Shown here: positions 1-9,726 of the stretch, piece by piece | Position numbering within the stretch: position 1 is the first letter of the stretch | How the letters are laid out: the number at the start of each line of letters is the position of its first letter | IMG/VR virus record: IMGVR_UViG_2579778635_000006 | Direction: 5' to 3' (one strand) | Length of the DNA: 36,361 bases | Origin: a virus | Lineage: Duplodnaviria; Heunggongvirae; Uroviricota; Caudoviricetes | Program-made: the position numbers and the translations under genes | Notes under the pieces: model-generated | The model's input: the letters and a program-made list of their open reading frames with translations, nothing else | What the model was told of the DNA's origin: nothing | Databases searched by the model: none

Positions 1-1056
1 TTATGACGGGGTAATGCCAACCGCTGCCGCCACTTTGTCGCCACTTGGCAGCGTTGCCAGAGGATTGAAACGGAGCGCCGTTTCCAGATGATCCGGTGCC
101 AGATGTGCGTAACGCATAGTCATTTTTATATCGTGGTGTCCGAGAATTTTTTGTAAGGCCAGAATGTTTCCACCCGACATCATGAAGTGCGCCGCAAACG
201 TATGGCGCAGAACGTGTGTGAGTTGACCGCGAGGGAGCACGATAGACGTTTTTTCCATTACGGATAAAAATTGAAAATAGCAGTCTGTGAAGAAATTGAA
301 TCCATCAAGCGCCATGATCTCTTCATAAAGCTCTTTACTGATAGGGATGCTTCTGTTTTTCTTCCCCTTCGTTCTTACAAAGGTAATTCGGTATTTAGTC
401 ACCTGTGATCGGGTAAGGTTTATTGCTTCTCGCCAGCGTGCGCCTGTGCTTAAGCATATCTTGACTACCAGTGCCAGAATTGGGTCCTGACGTTTGCAAT
501 CAGCCAGCAGTTCAACAATCTGCTCATGGGTAAGCCATGCCATCTCTTTTTCTGCGATGGTGAATTTTCGCATGTTCTCCAGTGGGTTTGGATACGACCA
601 TTCGCCCAGGCGGGATAGTTCGCTAAAAACACTACTTAGATAGCTTTGCTCCAGGTTAATGGTGACCGGGCTGGCTCCTTTCTTCCATTTCTCGCTGAAG
701 TAGATCTCACCGGTCAGGCGTTTATCTCGATAGTGGGCAAACATTTTAGAGGTGAGATTGGTTGCAAGAGGATTGCCTAGAGCGTCAACCATCAGCAGCA
801 ATTTGTCATAGACATGCTGCCCAGCAGTCAGAGATTTACCATGTAATTTGAACCATAGCTCAACCACGTCTTTCAGGGTTCGACGATCCACTGATTCGCC
901 CAGCCAGGGCTTTGATTCGGTTTCTTCCATCGTGTGACGCTCAAAAGCCAGAGCTTCGCCTTTGGTGGCGAATTGTTTACGCACACGACGCCCACTTCGT
1001 CCGGCGGGGTAACATTCGCAAAGCCATTTCCCTGTGGTGAGTTTTCGTACTGCCAT
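1..1056 (-). CDS. int: Tyrosine integrase, P2/186 Int family
   Basis: 351-aa ORF. The C-terminal catalytic region (LSTGARWREA, HVLRHTFAAHF, ILGHHDIKMTMRYAHL) fits tyrosine-recombinase signatures. It sits next to the att repeat and the cI repressor, as in P2 and 186. Confidence 0.95.
   Translation of the reverse strand: MAVRKLTTGKWLCECYPAGRSGRRVRKQFATKGEALAFERHTMEETESKPWLGESVDRRTLKDVVELWFKLHGKSLTAGQHVYDKLLLMVDALGNPLATNLTSKMFAHYRDKRLTGEIYFSEKWKKGASPVTINLEQSYLSSVFSELSRLGEWSYPNPLENMRKFTIAEKEMAWLTHEQIVELLADCKRQDPILALVVKICLSTGARWREAINLTRSQVTKYRITFVRTKGKKNRSIPISKELYEEIMALDGFNFFTDCYFQFLSVMEKTSIVLPRGQLTHVLRHTFAAHFMMSGGNILALQKILGHHDIKMTMRYAHLAPDHLETALRFNPLATLPSGDKVAAAVGITPS
22..44. repeat. attL: Putative attL core (cgctgccgccactttgtcgccac), overlapping the 3' end of int
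   Basis: Matches 33507-33529 at 21 of 23 positions, both mismatches C/T. It lies at the outer edge of the int gene. Confidence 0.6.
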
Positions 1057-1062
1057 AAAAAA

Positions 1063-1080
1063 GCCCTCATATCAGAGGGC
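1063..1080 (-). terminator. Hairpin (gccctc-atatca-gagggc) with a T-run on the minus strand, abutting the int start codon
   Basis: Inverted repeat seen directly. On the minus strand the stem is followed by TTTTTT and then the int ATG. The 3' arm also contains the GAGGG that would act as the int ribosome-binding site. Confidence 0.5.
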
Positions 1081-1126
1081 TAAATTTAACTGTATATTTG
1101 ACCAGTAGTCAATGTATGGTTTTTAC

Positions 1127-3115
1127 TTAAAAAACATTCTTATCCCCGTGGAAAAAACGTGCAACGTTCAATAGCCAGTCGGGGGTTTTTATTTCATTTG
1201 AATTTGCTAGTATTTCTAAATATTTTTCGCAAAATTCATTTTTTTTTCCTGGTAATTCGAAATAATCCTCAATAGCTTTTTTTTCTGTAATGTTAAGATT
1301 CAAAGCGCCTCCCGATACTGAAGACTCCATTAACTGTGGGGTTTCCATAAAGGACAAACTAGTTTCTCCTTTAGTGTAAAGCATTTTCAGAGTTTCTACG
1401 TAGAAATCAGCATTAAGAGACTGCTCAATTTCTGTAGGTGGATAAACTCGATCATCAGTAACTTTAACAAGGCTTATATTAGATAAGTCTTTATCGAGCA
1501 AGAGTCTTCTTATTTTTATACTTGGTATTGTATCTGTAGCATCATATGGACTATATTTGTGATCTGTATCTAATAATAATAATACTTTTCCTGAGATTGT
1601 TGCTTTGCGATCCTCTAACGCCATAACGAGTAAATTATATATTTTTTTTACTGTAGGGGAGCCACCGACGGATAAAACTATTAGTTTCTCAATGTTTTCA
1701 TAATCCAAGTGAGCGGAAATATATTTTCTATCAGTTTTTCCTTCGCACAATATCCAGTTATAATTATTTCCAGATGTTATTGAATAAACAATTGATTGTG
1801 CTAAGTCGTGATTGCTTTTCATTTCTAAAACGTCAAGGTAAGAGCCATTTGACTCTTTTGCTAGTTCCTTTAATTCATCCTTGTAGTTTTCCAGATCGAG
1901 TGCTTTGATGTATGTTTGAGAGGGGGAAATATATATGGCTGTACCTGAGCCTGTAACAGGTAAAAAACCATACCAATGAGTTGTACAAATAGTCTGTATG
2001 CCTAGGTCGCTAATTTTTTTTATTTTATCAAATTGATTAAAACATGATGTGGCATGTAAGGATAATTCAGGTTCATCAACAGCAAGAATTGTTGAGTGCT
2101 GAGATTTTTGTGGATTATGTTTTAAGAAATTGGTAGCAAGATCTAGCAATGCTTTTCTTTTTTCTCCTGAGCTTAAATTTTGCACAGGGGTATCTTTATT
2201 AACATCATCAATATGATGTAATATTTTATCACTAAAATATGATTCAATTATTTTAGATATCATATGACGTTGAGTGAAACTATTTTGTCGCTGAGATGGT
2301 TTTTTAAATTGATATCGCCCCTCAAGCTTTGTAGTTAATTGTCTAATAAAATCATTTAAGTGCGAATTTATTGCTGTAATATCCTTTTTCTTAATGATTT
2401 TACTGATTTTTTGTTGGAGATTTTCACCTAATAAAGACTGTAATAAATCGCTTTCAATCCTTGAGTATTCGGATGTGGTTATTTCTGCAGGTAGGTAAAT
2501 ATAATTATAGATATCCTTAATTGTTATTAATAGCTTAGGTAGTATATTGTTAAAATGATATTTTTTATTATTCGTCGAACTATTTTCATTTGCGAGATCA
2601 TCAATTTGCAATCGATAATCATCTATAGATTCGAAAATTGACATGTAGGGGCGAGGAATATCATTTGCAGTTTCTTTTATTATCCCAAGGGGAATTAATA
2701 AATATTCATCTGAAGAATATTTGTATTCTAGTTGCTTCCTGTGTGATATAAATTTCTCAGCTATAGGACGTTGCAATGTATTAAAAACTTCACTTTCTAT
2801 TTGCCAAGTGATATCGCTTACGATTTCTAATGCTTTGTATAGGGAATTATTTATCTTTAGCTTGTTTTTATTTATTAAATAAATTGGCACAATGAATGGT
2901 TCTCGAGTATCGAAACCTTGACTGCGCGCTTCATTGTTGATATCAAGTCTATTGATATCAGTTTTATTTAGTACAATATCTAATGCTTGTAATATTGAGC
3001 TTTTCCCGACACCATTTTCACCAATGAGCCAAGAGGATTTATTGTTTAAAGTGAGAGGGATATAATGTTGATTTTTGAAATTCTTGAAATTTCGTAAAAT
3101 AACACCAATAATCAT
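1127..3115 (-). CDS. OLD-family ATP-dependent nuclease: N-terminal ABC-type ATPase fused to C-terminal TOPRIM (class-1 OLD or fused AriA-AriB/PARIS-like)
   Basis: 662-aa ORF. Walker A is GENGVGKSS near the N-terminus and Walker B-like is ILAVDEPELSLH. The C-terminal region has the TOPRIM signatures CEGKTD and LLLDTDHK. The gene is visibly AT-rich against the phage backbone and lies between cI and int. Confidence 0.8.
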   Translation of the reverse strand: MIIGVILRNFKNFKNQHYIPLTLNNKSSWLIGENGVGKSSILQALDIVLNKTDINRLDINNEARSQGFDTREPFIVPIYLINKNKLKINNSLYKALEIVSDITWQIESEVFNTLQRPIAEKFISHRKQLEYKYSSDEYLLIPLGIIKETANDIPRPYMSIFESIDDYRLQIDDLANENSSTNNKKYHFNNILPKLLITIKDIYNYIYLPAEITTSEYSRIESDLLQSLLGENLQQKISKIIKKKDITAINSHLNDFIRQLTTKLEGRYQFKKPSQRQNSFTQRHMISKIIESYFSDKILHHIDDVNKDTPVQNLSSGEKRKALLDLATNFLKHNPQKSQHSTILAVDEPELSLHATSCFNQFDKIKKISDLGIQTICTTHWYGFLPVTGSGTAIYISPSQTYIKALDLENYKDELKELAKESNGSYLDVLEMKSNHDLAQSIVYSITSGNNYNWILCEGKTDRKYISAHLDYENIEKLIVLSVGGSPTVKKIYNLLVMALEDRKATISGKVLLLLDTDHKYSPYDATDTIPSIKIRRLLLDKDLSNISLVKVTDDRVYPPTEIEQSLNADFYVETLKMLYTKGETSLSFMETPQLMESSVSGGALNLNITEKKAIEDYFELPGKKNEFCEKYLEILANSNEIKTPDWLLNVARFFHGDKNVF

Positions 3116-3135
3116 TTTTTGTCCTTTAAAATTAA

Positions 3136-3726
3136 TTATTTACAAGTCATAATTACTTTAGCGATGATATTAACATCACTGATATTGCACTCTATTTTTT
3201 TTGATTTTGACTCTAGCATTATGCGGTTATTAGGTAACCTCATTAATTCTCGAACAGAATATATACCGTCAATGGCAATCAACCATAACCCATCATCAAT
3301 CTCATCCACACCTCGTCTCACGACATAAGTTATATGCTCATGCTCAAGAGCTGAGATATCTTTTAGGTCATTTGGCAATAGTGATAAATCAAAAATTAAA
3401 TAGCCATTATCAATCAGTTTGCCATCGATAATTTTCTCTCTGGTCAGGCTTACAACATGCGATTTTGCATCCACATACATGGGGCCTTCAGCTGCGGATA
3501 GCCAACGAAGTGAAATACCTGTTTCTAACGCACATTGAATTATCCAATCAGCGGGGAATGTATCTCTCATATATCGATTAGCTAACGTGCTTTTAGAAAC
3601 ACCAAGATGTTCAGCCAAAGCCTGTCGTGTCGTAAAGCCATAAGCTTCGACTAATCGCTCAATCGCAGCCTTACCACCTTTATTGGGATTTATTTTGATC
3701 TCACTTGGGTACTTTGATGTTGACAT
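3136..3726 (-). CDS. cI: Immunity repressor, 186 CI family
   Basis: 196-aa ORF. N-terminal HTH region (AYGFTTRQALAEHLGVSKSTLANRY) and C-terminal domain resemble 186 CI (recalled from memory). It is divergent from apl/cII across the switch region. Confidence 0.9.
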   Translation of the reverse strand: MSTSKYPSEIKINPNKGGKAAIERLVEAYGFTTRQALAEHLGVSKSTLANRYMRDTFPADWIIQCALETGISLRWLSAAEGPMYVDAKSHVVSLTREKIIDGKLIDNGYLIFDLSLLPNDLKDISALEHEHITYVVRRGVDEIDDGLWLIAIDGIYSVRELMRLPNNRIMLESKSKKIECNISDVNIIAKVIMTCK

Positions 3727-3821
3727 ATCTCTTTTGCGATCCTAGTATCACTTTTGTCCCCATTTGGGTACTTGTCACGATTACTACAGGCTCACCACAA
3801 GCCAATAGGAGATGTTGCATC
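3727..3821. promoter_or_regulatory. Lysis-lysogeny switch region (pR/pL-type promoters and CI operators expected)
   Basis: Intergenic region between divergent cI and apl, by analogy with the 186 switch. Exact promoters and operators were not resolved by eye. Confidence 0.5.
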
Positions 3822-4043
3822 ATGACCCCTAACATTTCAATAACTCTGAATACGCCACATGTCACAATTGAGCGTTATAGCGAACTTACTGGTCTTTCAA
3901 TCGACACAATTAACGATATGCTGGCTGACGGTCGCATCCCTCGGCATCGCCTTCGGAAAGACAAGAAAAGAGAAAAGGTGATGATCAACCTTGCTGCTCT
4001 TACCGTTGATGCACTTACTGATTGCAATGTTGTATTCAACTAG
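3822..4043 (+). CDS. apl: Excisionase and transcriptional repressor, Apl/Cox-like
   Basis: ATG at 3822 preceded by AGGAG. The 73-aa product ([32 protein letters not shown]...) has an HTH-like N-terminus. It is the first gene of the rightward early operon next to cI. Confidence 0.85.
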
Positions 4044-4075
4044 TTCCATTTTGGGATACATCAGGGGTGTCGACC

Positions 4076-4585
4076 ATGTTTGATTACCAAGTTTCCAAAC
4101 ATCCACATTTTGATGAAGCCTGTCGTGCATTCGCACTGCGCCACAACCTGGTGCAACTGGCAGAACGTGCAGGCATGAATGTGCAGATTCTGCGGAACAA
4201 GCTGAACCCAGCTCAACCTCATTTATTAACCGCACCAGATATCTGGCTACTTACCGATCTGACTGAAGATTCAACGCTGGTAGACGGTTTTCTGGCACAG
4301 ATTCATTGTCTGCCATGTGTACCGATTAATGAGGTGGCAAAAGAGAAACTGCCACATTACGTCATGAGTGCAACCGCAGAGATCGGGCGTGTTGCTGCAG
4401 GTGCGGTATCTGGCGATGTAAAAACCAGTGCAGGTCGTCGTAATGCTATCAGCAGCATTAACTCTGTAACACGACTGATGGCGTTGGCTGCTGTTTCATT
4501 GCAGGCCCGTTTACAGGCTAACCCTGCGATGGCGAGTGCAGTTGATACCGTGGCTGGCCTCGGTGCTTCATTCGGTTTGCTGTGA
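4076..4585 (+). CDS. cII: CII-like lysogeny establishment activator (186 CII family)
   Basis: ATG at 4076. The product begins [24 protein letters not shown] and closely matches 186 CII as recalled. Position after apl is as in 186. Confidence 0.9.
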
Positions 4586-4592
4586 GGTACTT

Positions 4593-4889
4593 ATGCTGAC
4601 GAAAGAACCATCATTTGCATCGCTGCTGGTAAAGCAAAGCCCGGCAATGCACTACGGTCACGGCTGGATCATGGGTGAGGATGGAAAACGCTGGCATCCA
4701 TGTCATTCACAAGATGAATTGCTGTCTGAATTGACCACGAGGAAACGGAGAAAGTCAAAATGTATGCAGCGGAAAGTGAAGTGGTTTATCAGTTTCGTTA
4801 CAGAGGGGAGAGTTATTCAGTACCTGAAGATGATTTGCTCTGTTGTTATCCGTCGTTGTCGGGCGATGGCAGTTACTTTTTCACGCTAA
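4593..4889 (+). CDS. Small early protein (186 fil-like position), hypothetical
   Basis: ATG at 4593 with GAGGT upstream. ORF is open to 4889. It overlaps the next ORF by about 130 nt in another frame, so its true extent is uncertain. Confidence 0.5.
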   Translation: MLTKEPSFASLLVKQSPAMHYGHGWIMGEDGKRWHPCHSQDELLSELTTRKRRKSKCMQRKVKWFISFVTEGRVIQYLKMICSVVIRRCRAMAVTFSR

Positions 4890-4984
4890 AAGATGGGACG
4901 TTTTTACGGGGAGAGCAGGTTAAAGAGACGATACGAAAAAATGTATCTCCTCTTGAACGTTACCGTAATAACAAACAACGATAG
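4760..4984 (+). CDS. Small early protein (186 dhr-like position), hypothetical
   Basis: ATG at 4760 with GGAG 9 nt upstream. 74-aa ORF in the early operon. Confidence 0.45.
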   Translation: MYAAESEVVYQFRYRGESYSVPEDDLLCCYPSLSGDGSYFFTLKDGTFLRGEQVKETIRKNVSPLERYRNNKQR

Positions 4985-5006
4985 TTGCGTTTTGGGGATA
5001 TGAATT

Positions 5007-5348
5007 ATGGCAATTAATGGCGCTGCGGCGACTGTTCCATTAAGCCCCGGTGAACGCCTGAATGGACTTAATCACATTGCGGAGCTAAGGGCGAAAGTTT
5101 TTGGCCTGAATATTGAGTCAGAGCTTGAGCGGTTTATTAAAGATATGCGTGATCCACGGGATATCAATAACGAACAAAATAAACGGGCACTGGCTGCTAT
5201 ATTCTTTATGGCAAAAATTCCAGCTGAACGTCATAGCATCAGCATTAATGAGCTGACCACTGACGAAAAGCGGGAGTTGATTAAAGCAATGAATCATTTT
5301 CGTGCAGTGGTGAGCTTATTTCCCAGACGGCTAACCATGCCGAATTAA
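5007..5348 (+). CDS. Hypothetical early protein
   Basis: 113-aa ORF co-oriented with the early operon. No recognisable motif. Confidence 0.6.
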   Translation: MAINGAAATVPLSPGERLNGLNHIAELRAKVFGLNIESELERFIKDMRDPRDINNEQNKRALAAIFFMAKIPAERHSISINELTTDEKRELIKAMNHFRAVVSLFPRRLTMPN

Positions 5349-5415
5349 CCAACTAATGAAATTAATGGCGTAAACCCGCCGGGTATCCCTTTATCTAAAT
5401 TCAGGAGAATTGATT

Positions 5416-5649
5416 ATGCGTAATATTGAAACCCTCACGACTAAAACCGGACCGGATGATGCAGGGCTTAATATTTTACTGACAGAGGCTCGTCTGGAAG
5501 AACGCCGGGCAAGGGCTGAAGCAATGGCAGCTCGCCTTGATAGCCTGGCGTGTCATATCACATCCCGCCAGCTAAACCATGTCGAAGCAGCAGAACTGCT
5601 GCGTGTGACCGCTGAAGCAATCCAGAACGAAGCGCAGGAGATCCACTGA
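5416..5649 (+). CDS. Hypothetical early protein
   Basis: ATG at 5416 with AGGAG upstream. Its stop overlaps the next gene start (ATGA). Confidence 0.6.
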   Translation: MRNIETLTTKTGPDDAGLNILLTEARLEERRARAEAMAARLDSLACHITSRQLNHVEAAELLRVTAEAIQNEAQEIH

Positions 5650-5876
5650 TGGCTGATGCAATGGATCTCGTACAGCAGCGAGTTGAAGAAGAACGCCAGC
5701 GTCATATCCGTGCTGCCCGTGCCAAAACGCCGGGCGTGTCCCGCGTGCTTTGCGTTGAGTGTGAAGCGCCAATTCCGCCAGCACGCCGCCGTGCCATTCC
5801 GGGTGTGCAACTTTGCATTACCTGTCAGGAAATCGCAGAGCTGAAAGGCAAACATTACAACGGAGGTGCTGTATGA
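5649..5876 (+). CDS. TraR/DksA-family C4 zinc-finger protein (P2 orf82-like)
   Basis: 75-aa product with CxxC...CxxC (CVECEAP...CITCQE). Translationally coupled to its neighbours. Confidence 0.75.
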   Translation: MADAMDLVQQRVEEERQRHIRAARAKTPGVSRVLCVECEAPIPPARRRAIPGVQLCITCQEIAELKGKHYNGGAV

Positions 5877-6730
5877 GCACCATCCTGAAATGGGCGGGAA
5901 ATAAAACCGCCATTATGTCCGAACTGAAAAAACATCTTCCTGCTGGTCCGCGACTGGTTGAACCTTTCGCGGGTTCCTGTGCAGTGATGATGGAGACGGA
6001 TTACCCCAGCTATCTTGTTGCGGATATTAATCCTGATTTAATCAACCTCTATAAAAAGGTTGCTGCTGATTGTGAGGCGTTTATATCTCGTGCCAGAGCT
6101 TTATTTGAGGAAGCAAACAGAGAGGTGGCTTATTACAACATAAGGCAGGAGTTTAATTACTCCACTGAAATTACTGATTTCATGAAAGCGGTATATTTTC
6201 TGTATCTCAATCGTCATGGTTACCGTGGGTTATGTCGTTATAACAAGAGCGAGCATTTCAACATTCCATACGGTAATTATAAAAATCCGTATTTCCCTGA
6301 AAAAGAAATTCGCGCATTTGCAGAGAAAGCCCAGCGAGCAACGTTTATCTGCGCCAGCTTTGATGAAACGCTGGCGATGCTGCAGGTGGGGGATGTGGTG
6401 TATTGCGATCCGCCTTATGACGGTACGTTTTCCGGCTATCACACTGATGGTTTCACTGAAGATGACCAGTATCACCTGGCATCTGTTCTTGAATATCGAT
6501 CATCAGAAGGTCATCCAGTCATTGTTTCTAACAGTGACACATCCCTGATCCGTTCGCTGTATCGAAATTTCACTCACCACTACATCAAGGCAAAACGCAG
6601 CATCGGCGTGTCGGCTGGCGAGAGTAAATCTGCAACAGAAATCATTGCTGTTTCCGGGGCGCGCTGCTGGGTGGGATTTGATCCTTCGTGTGGCGTGGAT
6701 AGTTCTGCTGTGTACGAGGTGCGTGTATGA
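5873..6730 (+). CDS. dam: DNA adenine methyltransferase (Dam-like, GATC-type N6-adenine MTase)
   Basis: Product begins [11 protein letters not shown] and contains the catalytic DPPY motif (VYCDPPYDG). ATG at 5873 overlaps the upstream stop. Confidence 0.9.
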
Positions 6731-9141
6731 GTCATGACGATATGAGCAACTCTAGCGGCTTTAACGAGGCCGCTGTAGCATTTTCATGGAACGGCCCGAA
6801 AAAGGCCATTAACCCTTATCTGGACCCGGCGGAAGTTGCGCTGGAGTCTGCACTTTCAAACCTGATCACTCTGTACGCTGCCGATAATGAGCAGGAACAG
6901 CTGCGCCGCGATGCACTGAGTGAGCAGGTCTGGGAGCGTTATTTCTTTAATGAATCCCGTGATCCTGTCCAGCGTGAAATGGAGCAGGATAAGCTCATTA
7001 GTCGGGCAAAGCTGGCGCATGAACAGCAGCGTTTTTACCCGGACATGGTCATTCTGGCGGACGTCAGCGCCCAGCCTTCCCACATCAGCAAGCCGCTGAT
7101 GCAACGTATCGAATATTTCAGCAGCCTGGGCAGGCCAAAGGCTTATTCTCGCTATCTGCGTGAGACGATTAAGCCATGTCTGGAACGACTGGAGCATGTA
7201 CGCGACAGTCAGCTATCCACTTCTTTTCGCTTTATGGCAAGCCATGAAGGGCTGGACGGCCTGCTGATCCTGCCTGAAATGAGTCAGGATCAGGTGAAAC
7301 GCCTGTCTACCCTTGTCGCTGCGCATATGAGCATGTGTCTTGATGCCGCTTGTGGTGATTTGTACGCCACCGATGATGTTAAGCCAGAAGAAATCCGCAA
7401 GACATGGGAAAGGGTGGCAGCGGAAACCCTACGTTTGGATGTCATCCCGCCTGCGTTTGAGCAACTCCGTCGGAAAAGAAACCGCCGTAAACCAGTGCCC
7501 TATGAACTCATTCCGGGCTCGCTGGCGCGTATGCTGTGCGCCGACTGGTGGTATCGGAAATTGTGGAAGATGCGTTGCGAATGGCGGGAAGAGCAGTTGC
7601 GTGCTGTCTGCCTGGTCAGCAAAAAAGCATCTCCCTATGTCAGCTATGAAGCTGTGATGCATAAACGTGAGCAGCGCCGTAAGTCGCTGGAGTTTTTCCG
7701 TTCTCATGAACTGGTGAACGAAGACGGAGACGCGCTGGATATGGAAGATGTGGTAAACGCCAGCTGCAGCAACCCGGCGCATCGCCGCAATGAGATGATG
7801 GCCTGTGTTAAAGGTCTGGAGCTTATCGCGGAAATGCGCGGTGACTGCGCCGTTTTCTACACCATTACCTGTCCGTCATGTTTCCATTCCACGCTAAATA
7901 ACGGCAGACCCAACCCGACCTGGAAAAACGCGACGGTAAGACAAAGCAGCGATTATCTGGTCGGTATGTTTGCTGCATTTCGTAAGGCGATGCACAAAGC
8001 CGGGTTGCGCTGGTATGGCGTGCGGGTGGCTGAGCCGCATCACGACGGCACAGTTCACTGGCACCTGTTGTGTTTCATGCGCAAAAAAGACCGCCGCGCC
8101 ATTACTGCATTGTTGCGTAAGTTTGCTATCCGTGAAGACCGCGAGGAGCTGGGCAATAACACGGGGCCGCGCTTTAAGTCTGAGCTGATTAACCCGCGCA
8201 AAGGAACGCCGACAAGCTACATAGCGAAATACATCAGTAAGAACATTGACGGGCGTGGTCTGGCTGGCGAGATCAGCAAGGAAACGGGTAAATCTCTTCG
8301 TGATAACGCTGAATACGTGAATGCCTGGGCGTCTTTGCATCGTGTTCAGCAATTCCGCTTCTTTGGTATTCCGGGGCGTCAGGCTTACCGTGAACTGCGA
8401 TTGCTGGCTGGTCAGGCGGCAAGGCAGCAGGGTGACAAAAAAGCAGGTGTGCCGGTACTGGATAACCCGCGCCTTGATGCCATTCTGGCTGCTGCTGATG
8501 CTGGTTGTTTTGCCACCTATATCATGAAGCAGGGAGGTGTACTGGTTCCCCGTAAATATCACCTCATCAGAACTGCTTATGAAATTAACGAAGAGCCGAC
8601 CGCCTATGGCGATCACGGTATTCGTATTTATGGCATCTGGTCACCCATTGCAGAGGGCAAGATCTGCACTCATGCAGTGAAGTGGAAAATGGTTCGTAAG
8701 GCCGTTGACGTTCAGGAGGCGGCAGCCGACCAGGGCGCTTGCGCCCCTTGGACTCGTGGCAATAACTGTCCCCTTGCTGAAAATTTGAACCAACAAGGGA
8801 AAGACAAATCAGCTGATGGGGACTCCAGAACGGATATTACCCGTATGAATGACAAGGAGTTGCACGATTACCTGCACAGTATGAGCAAAAAAGAGCGCCG
8901 GGAACTGGCTGCAAGGTTACGCCAGGTGAAACCGAAACGGCGTAAAGACTACAAACAGCGAATTACAGACCATCAGCGACAGCAGCTCGTCTATGAACTG
9001 AAGTCCAGGGGATTTGATGGCAGCGAGAAAGAAGTCGATTTGCTCCTTCGCGGCGGCAGTATTCCGTCAGGAGCAGGCCTGCGTATCTTCTATCGGAACC
9101 AGCGTCTGAAGGAAGATGATAAGTGGCGGAACCTGTATTAA
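6727..9141 (+). CDS. A: Rolling-circle replication initiator, P2 gpA family
   Basis: 804-aa ORF with the HUH-type motif VHWHLLCF and a tyrosine-containing region (YIAKYISK). Position before the cos-proximal region is as in P2. Confidence 0.95.
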
Positions 9142-9233
9142 TTACGCGGGTTAACAATTCGTGCTCTTAATAATACCAGGCATATCAGGCCGATGAACGT
9201 AAAAAAACGTTTTACATCAGTAAGATTATTATA

Positions 9234-9253
9234 TACTGTAAATATAAACAGTG
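9234..9253 (+). promoter_or_regulatory. LexA (SOS) box TACTGT-N8-ACAGTG overlapping the promoter of the tum-like operon
   Basis: CTGT at 9236-9239, an 8-nt AT-rich spacer, ACAG at 9248-9251: this fits the CTGT-N8-ACAG consensus. It lies about 40 nt upstream of the 9294 start, as for the 186 tum promoter. Confidence 0.7.
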
Positions 9254-9293
9254 GTTATGTGTACAGTATTGTTTTGGTGTCATAGGAGGAAAG

Positions 9294-9482
9294 ATGCAGG
9301 ACTATTTTTTGGAGTCTTTGAAGCTCCAGCGCATTGATTTTTTTCTTAAGCTTGTAGCGGCTAGTGAGTGTAGTGATGAAGAGAAGGGGCTGGCTCTGCA
9401 GTGGGTTTCTGAATTGACTGATGAACTCATGGCAAAAATCAGAAGCCACGAATACAACCGCTCAATGGATGTCATCAGCTGA
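9294..9482 (+). CDS. Small SOS-controlled protein at the position of the 186 Tum antirepressor N-terminal region (hypothetical)
   Basis: ATG at 9294 with AGGAGGA upstream. It directly follows the LexA box. 62 aa. Confidence 0.6.
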   Translation: MQDYFLESLKLQRIDFFLKLVAASECSDEEKGLALQWVSELTDELMAKIRSHEYNRSMDVIS

Positions 9483-9492
9483 GGTGACTTTT

Positions 9493-9726
9493 ATGCGCAT
9501 TGAAATAATGATCGATAAAGAGCAGAAGATTAGCCAGTCTACCCTGGACGCCCTTGAATCCGAGCTTTACCGCAATCTGCGCCCCCTGTATCCCAAAACG
9601 GTAATTCGCATTCGCAAAGGTAGCTCTAACGGTGTGGAACTAACCGGACTGCAACTGGATGAAGAAAGAAAACAAGTGATGAAAATTATGCAGAAGGTGT
9701 GGGAGGACGACAGCTGGCTGCATTAA
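9493..9726 (+). CDS. DinI-family protein
   Basis: ATG at 9493 with GAGGTGA upstream. The product (MRIEIMIDKEQKISQSTLDALESELYRNL...VWEDDSWLH) matches the DinI pattern: MRIE start, central aromatic, C-terminal acidic W. Confidence 0.8.
   Translation: MRIEIMIDKEQKISQSTLDALESELYRNLRPLYPKTVIRIRKGSSNGVELTGLQLDEERKQVMKIMQKVWEDDSWLH

What the first reader, a model, noticed from the sequence alone, without database searches (positions are those of the whole stretch)
1057..1085. Hairpin that acts as a terminator for the cargo gene while containing the int ribosome-binding site
On the minus strand the gccctc/gagggc hairpin is followed by a T-run that ends at the int ATG, and the GAGGG arm is the only Shine-Dalgarno-like element for int. 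Transcripts from the lysogenic operon would terminate here or fold so as to occlude int translation, which would keep integrase low in the lysogen despite the inserted cargo gene.
Basis: inference. Interest (0 to 1): 0.4.

Follow-up and report, generated by a model that had tools for sequence, protein, structure and literature searches.

The report
Insulating hairpin inside an integrase promoter
The small hairpin just before this prophage's integrase gene is real and conserved; it probably stops and silences transcripts arriving from the upstream repressor and defence genes, while an overlooked DNA-damage-responsive promoter that appears to start inside the hairpin lets integrase be made only when needed.

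Summary
On the minus strand, AGCCCTC-TGATAT-GAGGGCT (1081..1062, about -12.9 kcal/mol) is followed by a T-run that ends at the int ATG (1056). GAGGG in the 3' arm is the only Shine-Dalgarno-like element.

The hairpin is not a cargo accessory. It is the last element of a roughly 80-bp int control cassette that stays with int whatever lies upstream. The cassette occurs in 931 of 5426 complete E. coli genomes and in many other Enterobacterales.

Reading towards int, the cassette holds:
- an inverted repeat of the 186 CII-site type (1137..1112)
- a TTGACT -35 hexamer
- a LexA box in the spacer (1107..1088)
- a TTAAAT/TAAATT -10 hexamer
- the hairpin, the T-run and the ATG

The hairpin arms co-vary between genera. 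The predicted transcription start falls inside the 5' arm in 41 of 41 hairpin variants.

Best reading: transcripts reading through from the cI-cargo operon form the hairpin, so they terminate or have the ribosome site masked. Transcripts from int's own promoter lack the 5' arm and are translatable. That promoter is predicted to be LexA-repressed and CII-activated.

Relatives with the 186 arrangement, where cI abuts int, lack the whole cassette. No function was tested experimentally. I class this as a new variant of known kinds.

The parts
1..1056 (-). int, a tyrosine integrase of 351 aa. The start ATG is at 1056..1054.
   Evidence: ORF. Pfam Int_N and Phage_integrase domains. The start context ATGGCAGTACGAAAA is conserved in relatives.
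1057..1062 (-). T6 (U6) run between the hairpin and the int ATG. It serves both as a terminator U-tract and as the SD-to-ATG spacer.
   Evidence: It is kept in all relatives with Int identity of 76% or more except L019 (85%), and lost in the more distant ones.
1062..1081 (-). RNA hairpin AGCCCUC-UGAUAU-GAGGGCU. The 5' arm is 1081..1075, the loop 1074..1069 and the 3' arm 1068..1062.
   Evidence: -12.9 kcal/mol. Covariation.
1064..1068 (-). Shine-Dalgarno-like GAGGG, lying inside the 3' arm and 7 nt from the ATG.
   Evidence: Read directly from the sequence. An SD-like motif sits in the 3' arm in 40 of 45 unique relatives.
1076..1077 (-). Predicted transcription start of the int promoter (inferred, about +/-2 nt). 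It lies inside the 5' arm.
   Evidence: It is 7 nt after the -10 hexamer and 38 nt after the centre of the right half-site, as at 186 pE (PMC6593788).
1083..1089 (-). -10 element, either TTAAAT (1089..1084) or TAAATT (1088..1083).
   Evidence: Promoter scan gives TTGACT-18-TAAATT. The position is conserved in relatives.
1088..1107 (-). LexA (SOS) box TACTGGTCAAATATACAGTT, filling the promoter spacer.
   Evidence: Heterology index 4.6, the second-best 20-mer of 36,342 in the window. CTG-N10-CAG sits at -45..-52 in 67 of 98 unique relatives.
1107..1112 (-). -35 hexamer TTGACT.
   Evidence: TTGAC(N) or TTTACA is found in most of the 57 unique cassettes.
1112..1137 (-). Inverted repeat ATGTTTT-N12-CATACAT of the 186 CII binding-site type. 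The right half is 1118..1112, centred at about -38. The left half is 1137..1131, at about -57, and overlaps the last codons of the cargo gene.
   Evidence: one of only two such sites in the window at up to 1 mismatch, against 0.06 expected. Geometry equals that of pE (PMC6593788).
1127..3115 (-). Cargo gene, a 662-aa ABC/OLD-type ATPase (AAA_15; AriA/Old-like). GC is 31%. It starts 20 nt after the cI stop.
3136..3726 (-). cI, a 186-type immunity repressor and the first gene of the leftward lysogenic operon.
4076..4102 (+). pE-type CII site ATGTTTG-N13-CAAACAT at the start of cII. It is the reference copy for the int-upstream repeat.
   Evidence: The same element is annotated as the CII binding site in phage 186 and is conserved in all CII homologues seen.
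9234..9253 (+). LexA box TACTGTAAATATAAACAGTG of the tum/p95-like promoter. It serves as an internal positive control showing that this phage uses LexA.
   Evidence: HI 3.6, the best in the window. The p95-tum system of 186 is described in PMC7708051.

Best explanation
The hairpin is the downstream element of a compact control cassette, about 80 bp long, that belongs to int.

Transcripts that enter from upstream carry both arms. In this window these are the pL/pE-driven cI-cargo operon. The hairpin forms in them. It then acts as an intrinsic terminator (stem plus U6) and, in any read-through RNA, buries the only Shine-Dalgarno sequence of int. This uncouples int from the lysogenic operon and from whatever cargo sits there.

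Int is instead made from its own sigma-70 promoter, TTGACT-N17/18-TTAAAT/TAAATT. The predicted start of that promoter lies inside the 5' arm. Its mRNA therefore has a leader of about 21 nt, cannot form the hairpin, and has a free SD.

That promoter carries a LexA box in its spacer and a 186-CII-type inverted repeat centred at about -38/-57. It is predicted to be silent in the lysogen, de-repressed by the SOS response to supply Int for excision, and activated by CII after infection to supply Int for integration. The last role would be the functional analogue of lambda pI.

Shown here: the sequence elements, their geometry, their conservation and the covariation. Inferred: LexA and CII binding, the exact start site, and actual termination and translational masking.
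For: Hairpin:
- Its existence and stability are shown.
- In 19 close relatives 95.4% of cells are paired and 3 pairs changed on both sides. None of 500 shuffles reached the observed pairing or covariation score, and slid controls give 38-62% pairing.
- In ten lineages with unrelated arm sequences, native stems average -11.4 kcal/mol against -4.9 for arm-swapped chimeras. Only 4 of 90 chimeras are as stable as the native stem.
- G-U pairs occur in the int-sense strand only, and the antisense fold is weaker in the common variant (-9.5 vs -14.1 kcal/mol). This points to RNA of the int strand.
- The SD lies in the 3' arm in 40 of 45 variants.

The cassette is linked to int:
- Homology with 1135 E. 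coli genomes runs from int to window position about 1117-1129 and then breaks, whatever the cargo.
- The cassette also precedes int where D-ogr lies upstream.
- It is absent from all 17 loci where cI abuts int, and from 186 itself.
- Median MFE over -40..+3 is -13.4 kcal/mol with the cassette and -4.3 without.

Promoter and LexA box:
- locate them.
- With my approximate matrix, the int site (HI 4.6) and the tum promoter site (HI 3.6) are the two best 20-mers in the window. All 38 distinct relatives' boxes score 1.0-9.5, the range of the known E. coli boxes used.

CII-type repeat:
- It is one of two sites in the window, against 0.06 expected. The other is the pE site at the cII start.
- That element is annotated as the CII site in 186.
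- CII half-sites at pE are centred at -38 and -58 (PMC6593788), which matches the geometry here.
- Half-site variants at int (CATACAT, CAAACAT, CACACAT) also occur at pE sites of CII homologues.
- The left half-site is kept although the spacer and everything upstream differ between cargo variants.

Start site inside the arm:
- This holds in 41 of 41 hairpin variants, leaving 0-5 arm nucleotides.
- Median predicted P(SD unpaired) is 0.00 in read-through RNA and 0.42 in promoter-initiated RNA.

Termination appears to be selected:
- Hairpins with a T-run and separate upstream terminators are complementary. Counts are 47/1 vs 9/11, Fisher p = 1e-6, though this reflects few independent lineages.
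Against: - Nothing was measured. There is no TSS, LexA-binding, CII-binding, termination or translation data.
- The start-site argument is sensitive to position. In this window a start only 2 nt further upstream would keep the hairpin, with P(SD unpaired) 0.02. The predicted +1 region is a pyrimidine run (CCCTCT), which is not a preferred start.
- The -10 is imperfect. TTAAAT lacks the -11 A, and TAAATT needs an 18-bp spacer.
- The window's left half-site (ATGTTTT) has a mismatch. Spacing is 19 bp rather than the 20 bp of pE in 33 of 57 cassettes.
- 186 itself is said to have a single CII-activated promoter (PMC7708051).
- LexA repression and CII activation at one promoter are in tension. After infection of an unstressed cell LexA would still be bound.
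- The LexA matrix was rebuilt from memory.
- The stem is short (7 bp), so termination may be partial.
- The covariation rests on few independent evolutionary events.
- Some distant relatives with the promoter elements have weak or no hairpins (L028, L039, L042, L047).
Confidence: 0.55

Rival explanations
1. Plain operon terminator. The hairpin plus T-run is only the intrinsic terminator of the cI-cargo operon. Its overlap with the int ribosome site is incidental, and int mRNA from its own promoter is unaffected either way.
For: It scores as the best terminator-like site in 1..5000. It lies 45 nt after the cargo stop. Hairpins with a T-run and separate upstream terminators are mutually exclusive.
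Against: The SD-in-3'-arm hairpin is kept in Serratia, Yersinia, Rahnella, Pantoea and Brenneria relatives that have no T-run. In many of these a separate terminator already sits upstream. So pairing with the SD is conserved independently of termination. The 5' arm always abuts the -10 hexamer, which a simple terminator would not require.
Confidence: 0.15
2. 5'-UTR element of the int mRNA itself. Under this reading the promoter starts at or before A1081, so the hairpin sits at the extreme 5' end of every int transcript. There it would act as an attenuator, a translational brake or an mRNA stabiliser, perhaps relieved by a factor such as Int autoregulation or antitermination.
For: If the start is at least 2 nt upstream of the prediction, the hairpin still forms. 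Purines A1081 and G1080 are the nearest preferred start nucleotides. Int is needed only in small amounts.
Against: A1081 and G1080 are only 2-4 nt from the -10 hexamer, which is too close for normal start selection. The CII half-site geometry taken from pE independently places +1 at about 1077 (PMC6593788). A terminator acting on all int transcripts would need an unknown antiterminator. Across 41 variants the arm always straddles the predicted +1 instead of lying a variable distance downstream.
Confidence: 0.2
3. DNA-level palindrome. The inverted repeat would be a binding site for a dimeric protein, such as Int or a host factor, or a cruciform. It would not be an RNA structure.
For: Palindromic protein sites also show symmetric changes on both sides.
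Against: G-U (T-G) pairs are frequent. Pair 13-26 is U-G in 9 of 19 sequences, which preserves RNA pairing on the int strand but breaks DNA symmetry. Arm sequences are unrelated between lineages apart from the SD, loop length varies from 3 to 10 nt, and no common recognition sequence exists. The 186 Int arm consensus YAYCGCCAYTY is absent.
Confidence: 0.04
4. Chance hairpin in an AT-rich spacer.
For: Short stems are common. The scan finds 8 terminator-like sites against 3.9 expected in 5 kb.
Against: The evidence includes conservation in 931 E. coli genomes and across genera with covarying arms. The z-score is -5.8, and the geometry relative to the promoter and the ATG is fixed.
Confidence: 0.01

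Closest known systems
IS10/Tn10 protection from external promoters ('fold-back inhibition'; Davis, Simons & Kleckner 1985, Cell 43:379). The citation is listed in PMC13181058, which notes that IS10 translation signals are sequestered in a secondary structure. The mechanistic details given here are from my own knowledge.
   Same: Transcripts that read in from outside contain a 5' segment that pairs with the ribosome-binding site of a recombinase gene and blocks its translation. Transcripts from the element's own promoter start inside the structure and lack that segment. The purpose is the same: to insulate a DNA-rearranging enzyme from neighbouring transcription.
   Different: Here the gene is a phage tyrosine integrase, not a transposase. 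In the enteric clade the stem is also followed by a U-run, so it can terminate as well as mask. The promoter carries LexA- and CII-type sites. There is no antisense RNA or dam control. None of this has been shown experimentally here.
Phage lambda int control: the CII-activated pI promoter, with tI/sib retroregulation of pL transcripts. The role of lambda CII in activating integrase expression is stated in PMC7708051. The sib details are from my own knowledge.
   Same: The logic matches. Int expression depends on which promoter made the transcript. A CII-type activator would drive a dedicated int promoter during establishment of lysogeny.
   Different: Lambda discriminates at the 3' end, where RNase III processing at sib degrades antiterminated pL transcripts. 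Here the discrimination is at the 5' end, through a hairpin that overlaps the start site. 186-type CII is unrelated to lambda CII. Lambda pI has no LexA box.
Phage 186 pE, the CII-activated establishment promoter (NC_001317 annotation; PMC6593788; PMC7708051).
   Same: The same 7-bp inverted half-sites (ATGTWTG / CAWACAT) lie about two helical turns apart. The promoter-proximal half-site abuts the -35 region and lies 22-23 nt before the -10 hexamer.
   Different: The int copy has a near-consensus -35 (TTGAC), a LexA box in the spacer, 19-bp spacing in many variants, and a hairpin at +1. 186 itself is described as having only one CII-activated promoter and transcribes int with cI. CII binding here is untested.
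LexA control of integron integrase promoters (PMC3108266) and of the 186 tum promoter p95 (PMC7708051).
   Same: A LexA box overlaps the promoter of a tyrosine-recombinase gene, or of the phage antirepressor gene. This couples DNA rearrangement or induction to the SOS response. The window has both a tum-type box (9234-9253) and the int box.
   Different: I found no description of a LexA box at the int promoter of P2/186-like phages in the literature searches. In 186, SOS acts through Tum only.
The cI-int variable locus or defence hotspot of P2-related phages. Rousset et al. 2022 (PMC9122126) describe it for Vibrio K139-like phages. PMC13586616 places 8% of P2 defence systems in an integrase-primase hotspot.
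   Same: Diverse defence-like cargo lies between the repressor and the integrase.
   Different: The passages of those papers that I searched describe the cargo. They do not mention a regulatory cassette next to int.

Membership tests
Intrinsic (Rho-independent) terminator | G+C-rich stem-loop immediately followed by a U-tract on the transcribed strand. | tested here: met
   The stem has 7 bp with 5 G-C pairs, a 6-nt loop and an energy of -12.9 kcal/mol. It is followed by U6, with the first U lying in the stem.
Intrinsic (Rho-independent) terminator | Lies downstream of a co-oriented transcription unit, with no other terminator before the next gene. | tested here: met
   It lies 45 nt after the cargo stop codon. 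It is the only minus-strand terminator-like site in 1..5000.
Intrinsic (Rho-independent) terminator | Actually releases transcripts. | not testable with these tools
   This needs an in vitro termination assay or 3'-end mapping. The only support is indirect: complementarity with separate upstream terminators in other lineages.
SD-sequestering (translational masking) hairpin of the fold-back-inhibition type | The Shine-Dalgarno sequence is base-paired within a conserved stem. | tested here: met
   GAGGG lies in the 3' arm. The same holds in 40 of 45 variants. P(unpaired) is about 0.00 in read-through RNA. Covariation is shown.
SD-sequestering (translational masking) hairpin of the fold-back-inhibition type | The gene's own promoter starts inside the structure, so its mRNA lacks the masking arm. 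| tested here: inconclusive
   The predicted +1 lies inside the 5' arm in 41 of 41 variants. However, the start is inferred from promoter geometry only, and a shift of -2 nt restores the hairpin in this window.
LexA (SOS) box | CTGT-N8-ACAG palindrome with an A/T-rich centre and a heterology index in the range of known boxes. | tested here: met
   The site is TACTGGTCAAATATACAGTT, with CTGG as in ruvAB. HI is 4.6 against 1.0-9.5 for 26 remembered E. coli boxes. It is the second best of 36,342 20-mers. The matrix was rebuilt from memory, so values are approximate.
LexA (SOS) box | Overlaps a promoter and is conserved in position. | tested here: met
   It fills the -35/-10 spacer. CTG-N10-CAG sits at -45..-52 from the ATG in 67 of 98 unique relatives, at Int identities of 53-100%.
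LexA (SOS) box | Binds LexA, and the gene is SOS-induced. | not testable with these tools
   This needs EMSA or ChIP, and expression assays in lexA mutants or after mitomycin C.
186 CII-activated promoter (pE type) | 7-bp inverted half-sites ATGTTTG/CAAACAT about two helical turns apart. | tested here: met
   The window has ATGTTTT-N12-CATACAT, with 1 mismatch to ATGTWTG/CAWACAT. It is one of two such sites in the window, against 0.06 expected. Spacing is 19 bp in 33 cassettes and 20 bp in 21 of 57, where pE has 20 bp.
186 CII-activated promoter (pE type) | Half-sites centred at -38 and -58 of the start site (PMC6593788). | tested here: met
   The right half-site centre (1115) is 38 nt from the +1 predicted independently from the -10 hexamer (1077). 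The left half-site is at about -57. The start itself is predicted, not measured.
186 CII-activated promoter (pE type) | Negligible basal activity and strong CII-dependent activation. | not testable with these tools
   The -35 here (TTGACT) is much better than at pE, so basal activity may be substantial. This needs a reporter assay with a CII supply.
Moron-type cargo cassette (gene with its own promoter and terminator) | The terminator travels with the cargo gene. | tested here: not met
   The hairpin stays with int while the cargo, and cI with it, is replaced. The cargo starts 20 nt after the cI stop, with no promoter room.

The most novel reading that the evidence does not exclude
The cassette is a portable insulator-plus-switch, and it is what makes the cI-int junction a permissive slot for swapping immunity and defence genes. 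Three elements are superimposed within about 80 bp: a terminator/anti-SD hairpin overlapping the transcription start, a LexA operator and a CII site. Together they would make int expression independent of anything inserted upstream. Int would respond to only two signals: CII for integration and SOS for excision. Lineages without the cassette, arranged like 186 with cI translationally coupled to int, cannot accept cargo at this position.
Probability: 0.3. Interest if true: 0.65.

Novelty: new variant of a known kind. Interest (0 to 1): 0.5.

Why it matters
About one in six complete E. coli genomes carries this cassette, including the laboratory B/BL21 lineage. If the model holds, it has four consequences.

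- It explains how a large family of 186-like prophages keeps integrase off in the lysogen while a constitutively transcribed defence gene sits directly upstream.
- It gives these phages a lambda-pI-like, CII-driven int promoter that 186 itself lacks.
- It adds direct SOS control of int to the known Tum route of induction.
- It offers a mechanistic reason why the cI-int junction can serve as an exchange slot for defence genes.

It would also be a compact natural part for synthetic biology, combining a terminator, a promoter and a ribosome-site mask in 80 bp. If the model is wrong, the element is still a well-conserved terminator and SD hairpin of ordinary kind.

Tried and rejected
- **Rfam scan of 950-1250.** Only sub-threshold hits appeared (RyhB at 26 bits against a gathering score of 55, Trp leader and others). 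These are driven by the terminator-like stem plus U-run. There is no known RNA family here.
- **Naming the cargo.** NCBIfam gave nothing above its cut-offs. It remains an AAA_15 / AriA-Old-like ATPase.
- **Multiple alignment of all 31 hairpin variants with MAFFT (A1).** Distant lineages were misaligned structurally. Column-wise pair counts were therefore restricted to 19 close sequences (A2). The deep comparison was done with an arm-swap (chimera) energy test instead.
- **A CI-operator explanation for the CTG-N10-CAG palindrome.** The only other AT-rich copy in the window is at the tum promoter, and there is none at pR/pL. Rejected.
- **A plus-strand terminator role.** In this window the plus-strand stem is as stable, but its tail is TAAATTTAA, a poor T-tract. 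In the common variant the antisense stem is weakened by A-C mismatches. This is not the main function.
- **The short ORF 873..1070 (-) that starts at the AUG in the hairpin loop.** It has no SD, is out of frame with int, and the loop AUG is absent in the common variant. Rejected as a gene.
- **Literature.** Murchland et al. 2014 (PMC4231686) is not held in the library. The search for papers on P2 int regulation returned nothing I followed up. Searches for a LexA box at a P2/186-like int promoter found nothing.

Full report
**1. What is at the coordinates**

The window is a 186/P2-like prophage. Reading leftward on the minus strand, the order is cI (3726..3136), a 662-aa AAA_15/AriA-Old-like ATPase 'cargo' (3115..1127) and int (1056..1). 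Reading rightward there are apl and cII.

Between the cargo stop and the int ATG, the minus strand reads as follows:

...AGA ATGTTTT TTAAGTAAAAAC CATACA TTGACT ACTGGTCAAATATACAG TTAAAT TT AGCCCTC TGATAT GAGGGCT TTTTT ATG

The hairpin AGCCCUC/GAGGGCU spans 1081..1062. It has 7 bp, 5 of them G-C, and a 6-nt loop. Its energy is -12.9 kcal/mol, with z = -5.8 against shuffles. The T-run ends at the ATG. GAGGG, 7 nt from the ATG, is the only SD-like element. It is the only minus-strand terminator-like site in the first 5 kb.

**2. The hairpin belongs to int, not to the cargo**

A megablast of 1-3800 against 5426 complete E. coli genomes finds 1135 genomes with int. In nearly all of them the match runs through the hairpin to about 1117-1129 and then breaks. 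Beyond that point each relative has a different gene. Examples are DUF4041, KAP P-loop NTPase, SNIPE-associated, Panacea-domain and hypothetical proteins. The commonest variant has only a 63-aa secreted Cys-rich peptide.

The 96-bp region itself is found in 931 genomes, including BL21.

I fetched 157 loci through the Int protein. In every locus where cI abuts int (gap 11-26 bp, 17 loci), the cassette is absent. In every locus with the cassette, at least 413 bp separate cI from int, or the upstream context is different. In Rahnella, for example, tail gene D and ogr lie upstream.

Phage 186 itself has the cI stop overlapping the int ATG (TAATG) and no hairpin. The median MFE over -40..+3 is -13.4 kcal/mol with the cassette and -4.3 without.

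**3. The hairpin is a selected RNA structure that holds the SD**

- Among 45 distinct sequences from the -10 hexamer to the ATG, 40 have an SD-like motif in the 3' arm of a hairpin.
- In 19 close relatives, 95.4% of cells pair. Three of 8 pairs show changes on both sides: A-U to U-A, C-G to U-A, and A-U to C-G/U-G. None of 500 shuffles reaches the observed pairing or covariation score. Slid controls drop to 38-62% pairing.
- Ten lineages have essentially unrelated arms (E. coli types 1 and 2, Kluyvera, Serratia, Yersinia, Rahnella, Ewingella, Pantoea, Brenneria). Their native stems average -11.4 kcal/mol against -4.9 for arm-swapped chimeras. Only 4 of 90 chimeras match the native stability.
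- G-U pairs are frequent and make the antisense fold weaker. The structure is therefore selected in int-sense RNA, not as a DNA palindrome.

**4. The T-run and termination**

All relatives with Int identity of 76% or more have the T-run, except L019 (Kluyvera, 85%). More distant ones keep the SD hairpin without it.

Of the 48 distinct upstream regions whose hairpin scores as a terminator, 47 have no other terminator within 200 nt. Of the 20 without a T-run, 11 have a canonical terminator immediately upstream of the cassette. Fisher's exact test gives p = 1e-6, but this reflects few independent lineages.

This complementarity suggests that stopping upstream transcripts before int is a selected function. 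The function would be carried either by the hairpin itself or by a separate terminator. SD masking is the more widely conserved role.

**5.

Directly upstream of the hairpin lies TTGACT (1112..1107), followed after 17/18 bp by TTAAAT/TAAATT. The spacer is filled by TACTGGTCAAATATACAGTT (1107..1088), a LexA-box palindrome.

I rebuilt a heterology-index matrix from 26 E. coli SOS boxes that I remember, so values are approximate. With it, the two best 20-mers of the whole window are the box after gene A (9234, HI 3.6) and this one (HI 4.6). The first corresponds to the tum/p95 promoter of 186 (PMC7708051). The training boxes span HI 1.0-9.5.

CTG-N10-CAG sits at -45..-52 from the int ATG in 67 of 98 distinct relatives' upstream regions, at Int identities of 53-100%. 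All 38 distinct boxes score HI 1.0-9.5, and several are near-consensus, such as TACTGTTTTTATATACAGTA.

**6. A CII-type site**

Abutting the -35 hexamer is the inverted repeat ATGTTTT-N12-CATACAT (1137..1112). The pattern ATGTWTG-N12/13-CAWACAT, allowing up to 1 mismatch, occurs only twice in the window against 0.06 expected. The other copy, ATGTTTG-N13-CAAACAT at 4076-4102, lies at the start of cII. The 186 GenBank record annotates exactly that element as the CII binding site of pE.

CII half-sites at pE are centred at -38 and -58 (PMC6593788). At both pE and the int cassette, the proximal half-site is followed 22-23 nt later by the -10 hexamer. The int half-sites therefore sit at about -38 and -57.

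Across cargo variants the spacer and everything upstream differ, yet the distal half-site is retained. ATGTATG is the commonest form. The half-site variants seen at int also occur at pE sites of diverged CII homologues.

The literature states that 186 has a single CII-activated promoter (PMC7708051). A second, int-specific one would therefore be a difference between this lineage and 186, and a functional parallel to lambda pI.

**7. Where the promoter starts relative to the hairpin**

Two independent rulers put +1 at about 1077-1076. One is 7 nt after the -10 hexamer. The other is 38 nt after the centre of the proximal half-site. Both place +1 inside the 5' arm.

The same holds in 41 of 41 hairpin variants, leaving only 0-5 arm nucleotides in the promoter's own RNA. 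The predicted probability that the SD is unpaired is 0.00 (median) in read-through RNA and 0.42 in RNA started at the predicted +1.

This inference is fragile at the level of 2 nt. In this window a start at 1079 would keep the hairpin.

**8. Model**

Transcripts from the cI-cargo operon contain both arms. The cargo starts 20 nt after the cI stop, with an SD and no room for a promoter. These transcripts terminate at the U-run, or if they read through, carry a masked SD.

Transcripts from the int promoter lack the 5' arm and are translated. The promoter is predicted to be LexA-repressed, hence SOS-inducible and supplying Int for excision together with Apl. It is also predicted to be CII-activated, supplying Int for integration.

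The mechanism most resembles the fold-back inhibition by which IS10 protects its transposase gene from external promoters. That work is Davis, Simons & Kleckner 1985, cited in PMC13181058; the details are from my own knowledge. The logic resembles lambda pI and sib. The LexA input resembles that of integron integrases (PMC3108266).

**9. What remains open**

- No binding, start-site, termination or translation data exist.
- LexA repression and CII activation on one promoter are in tension.
- The -10 hexamer is imperfect.
- The window's distal half-site is the most degenerate of those seen.
- The covariation rests on few independent events.

The main rival (0.2) is that the promoter starts upstream of the arm and the hairpin is a 5'-UTR brake on all int mRNA. 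A plain terminator with an incidental SD overlap (0.15) does not explain why the SD hairpin is retained without a T-run.

**10. Novelty**

The cI-int variable or defence locus of P2-related phages has been noted (PMC9122126, PMC13586616). I found no description of this int cassette, or of a LexA box or second CII site at int in 186-like phages. Every component is of a known kind, but the combination and the overlap of terminator/anti-SD hairpin with the start site appear undescribed. I class it as a new variant of a known kind, with interest 0.5.

Noticed in passing
window 9231-9270: There is a near-consensus LexA box, TACTGTAAATATAAACAGTG (HI 3.6), with a weaker adjacent one at 9249 (HI 9.2). 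They lie just after replication gene A (6727-9141). Downstream are a 62-aa ORF (9294-9482) and an overlapping 101-aa DinI-like ORF (9421-9726). This looks like the 186 p95-tum SOS antirepressor module, possibly split into two frames here.
   Followed up: partly
window 1127-3726, and loci L082-L161: The unit that varies between otherwise 97-99% identical prophages is cI plus cargo together. CI identity is only 39-57%, while Int is 99% and CII 97-98%. Immunity type and defence cargo therefore seem to be exchanged as one block, between the int cassette on one side and apl-cII on the other.
   Followed up: partly
L003 about 5060-6500 (NZ_OX460335, E. coli EC0880B laboratory derivative): An IS4 element is inserted within the 5' arm of the hairpin. 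The 3' arm, T-run and int remain, but the promoter, LexA box and CII-type repeat are separated from int. This is a natural 'hairpin-open, promoter-less' mutant.
   Followed up: no
L139 5621-5812 (commonest variant, about 40 loci): The minimal cargo between cI and the int cassette is a 63-aa signal-peptide-bearing, Cys-rich peptide of the NCBIfam PRK10040 'hypothetical protein' family. Its function is unknown.
   Followed up: partly
L029 4700-6000 (Rahnella bonaserana) and similar loci L030-L038, L080: The same int cassette (CII-type repeat, LexA box, SD hairpin) precedes int in a different genome arrangement. Here int follows the tail gene D, an ogr-like zinc-finger gene and an oppositely oriented 175-aa membrane or zinc-ribbon ORF, not cI. 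No cI or cII homologue lies within the 6 kb fetched.
   Followed up: partly
L036, L040, L041, L044, L045, L046 (Pectobacterium, Brenneria, Budvicia): These relatives have 550-2100 bp between cI and int but no LexA box, no CII-type repeat and no SD hairpin upstream of int. So cargo at this junction does not always come with the cassette. How int is expressed there was not examined.
   Followed up: no
window 1127-3115: The cargo is an AT-rich gene, 31% GC against 51% for the whole window. It encodes a 662-aa ABC-type ATPase with AAA_15/AriA-like N-terminal region (residues 1-380) and an Old-like match over residues 287-496. It is probably a single-gene OLD/PARIS-like defence protein. It was found essentially intact in only 8 of 5426 E. 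coli genomes.
   Followed up: partly
window 1131-1137 vs 1127-1129: The distal half-site of the CII-type repeat overlaps the last three codons (Asn-Val-Phe) and precedes the stop codon of the cargo gene. The cargo's 3' end and the int promoter's upstream element therefore share sequence. In other variants the half-site follows the stop codon directly.
   Followed up: no
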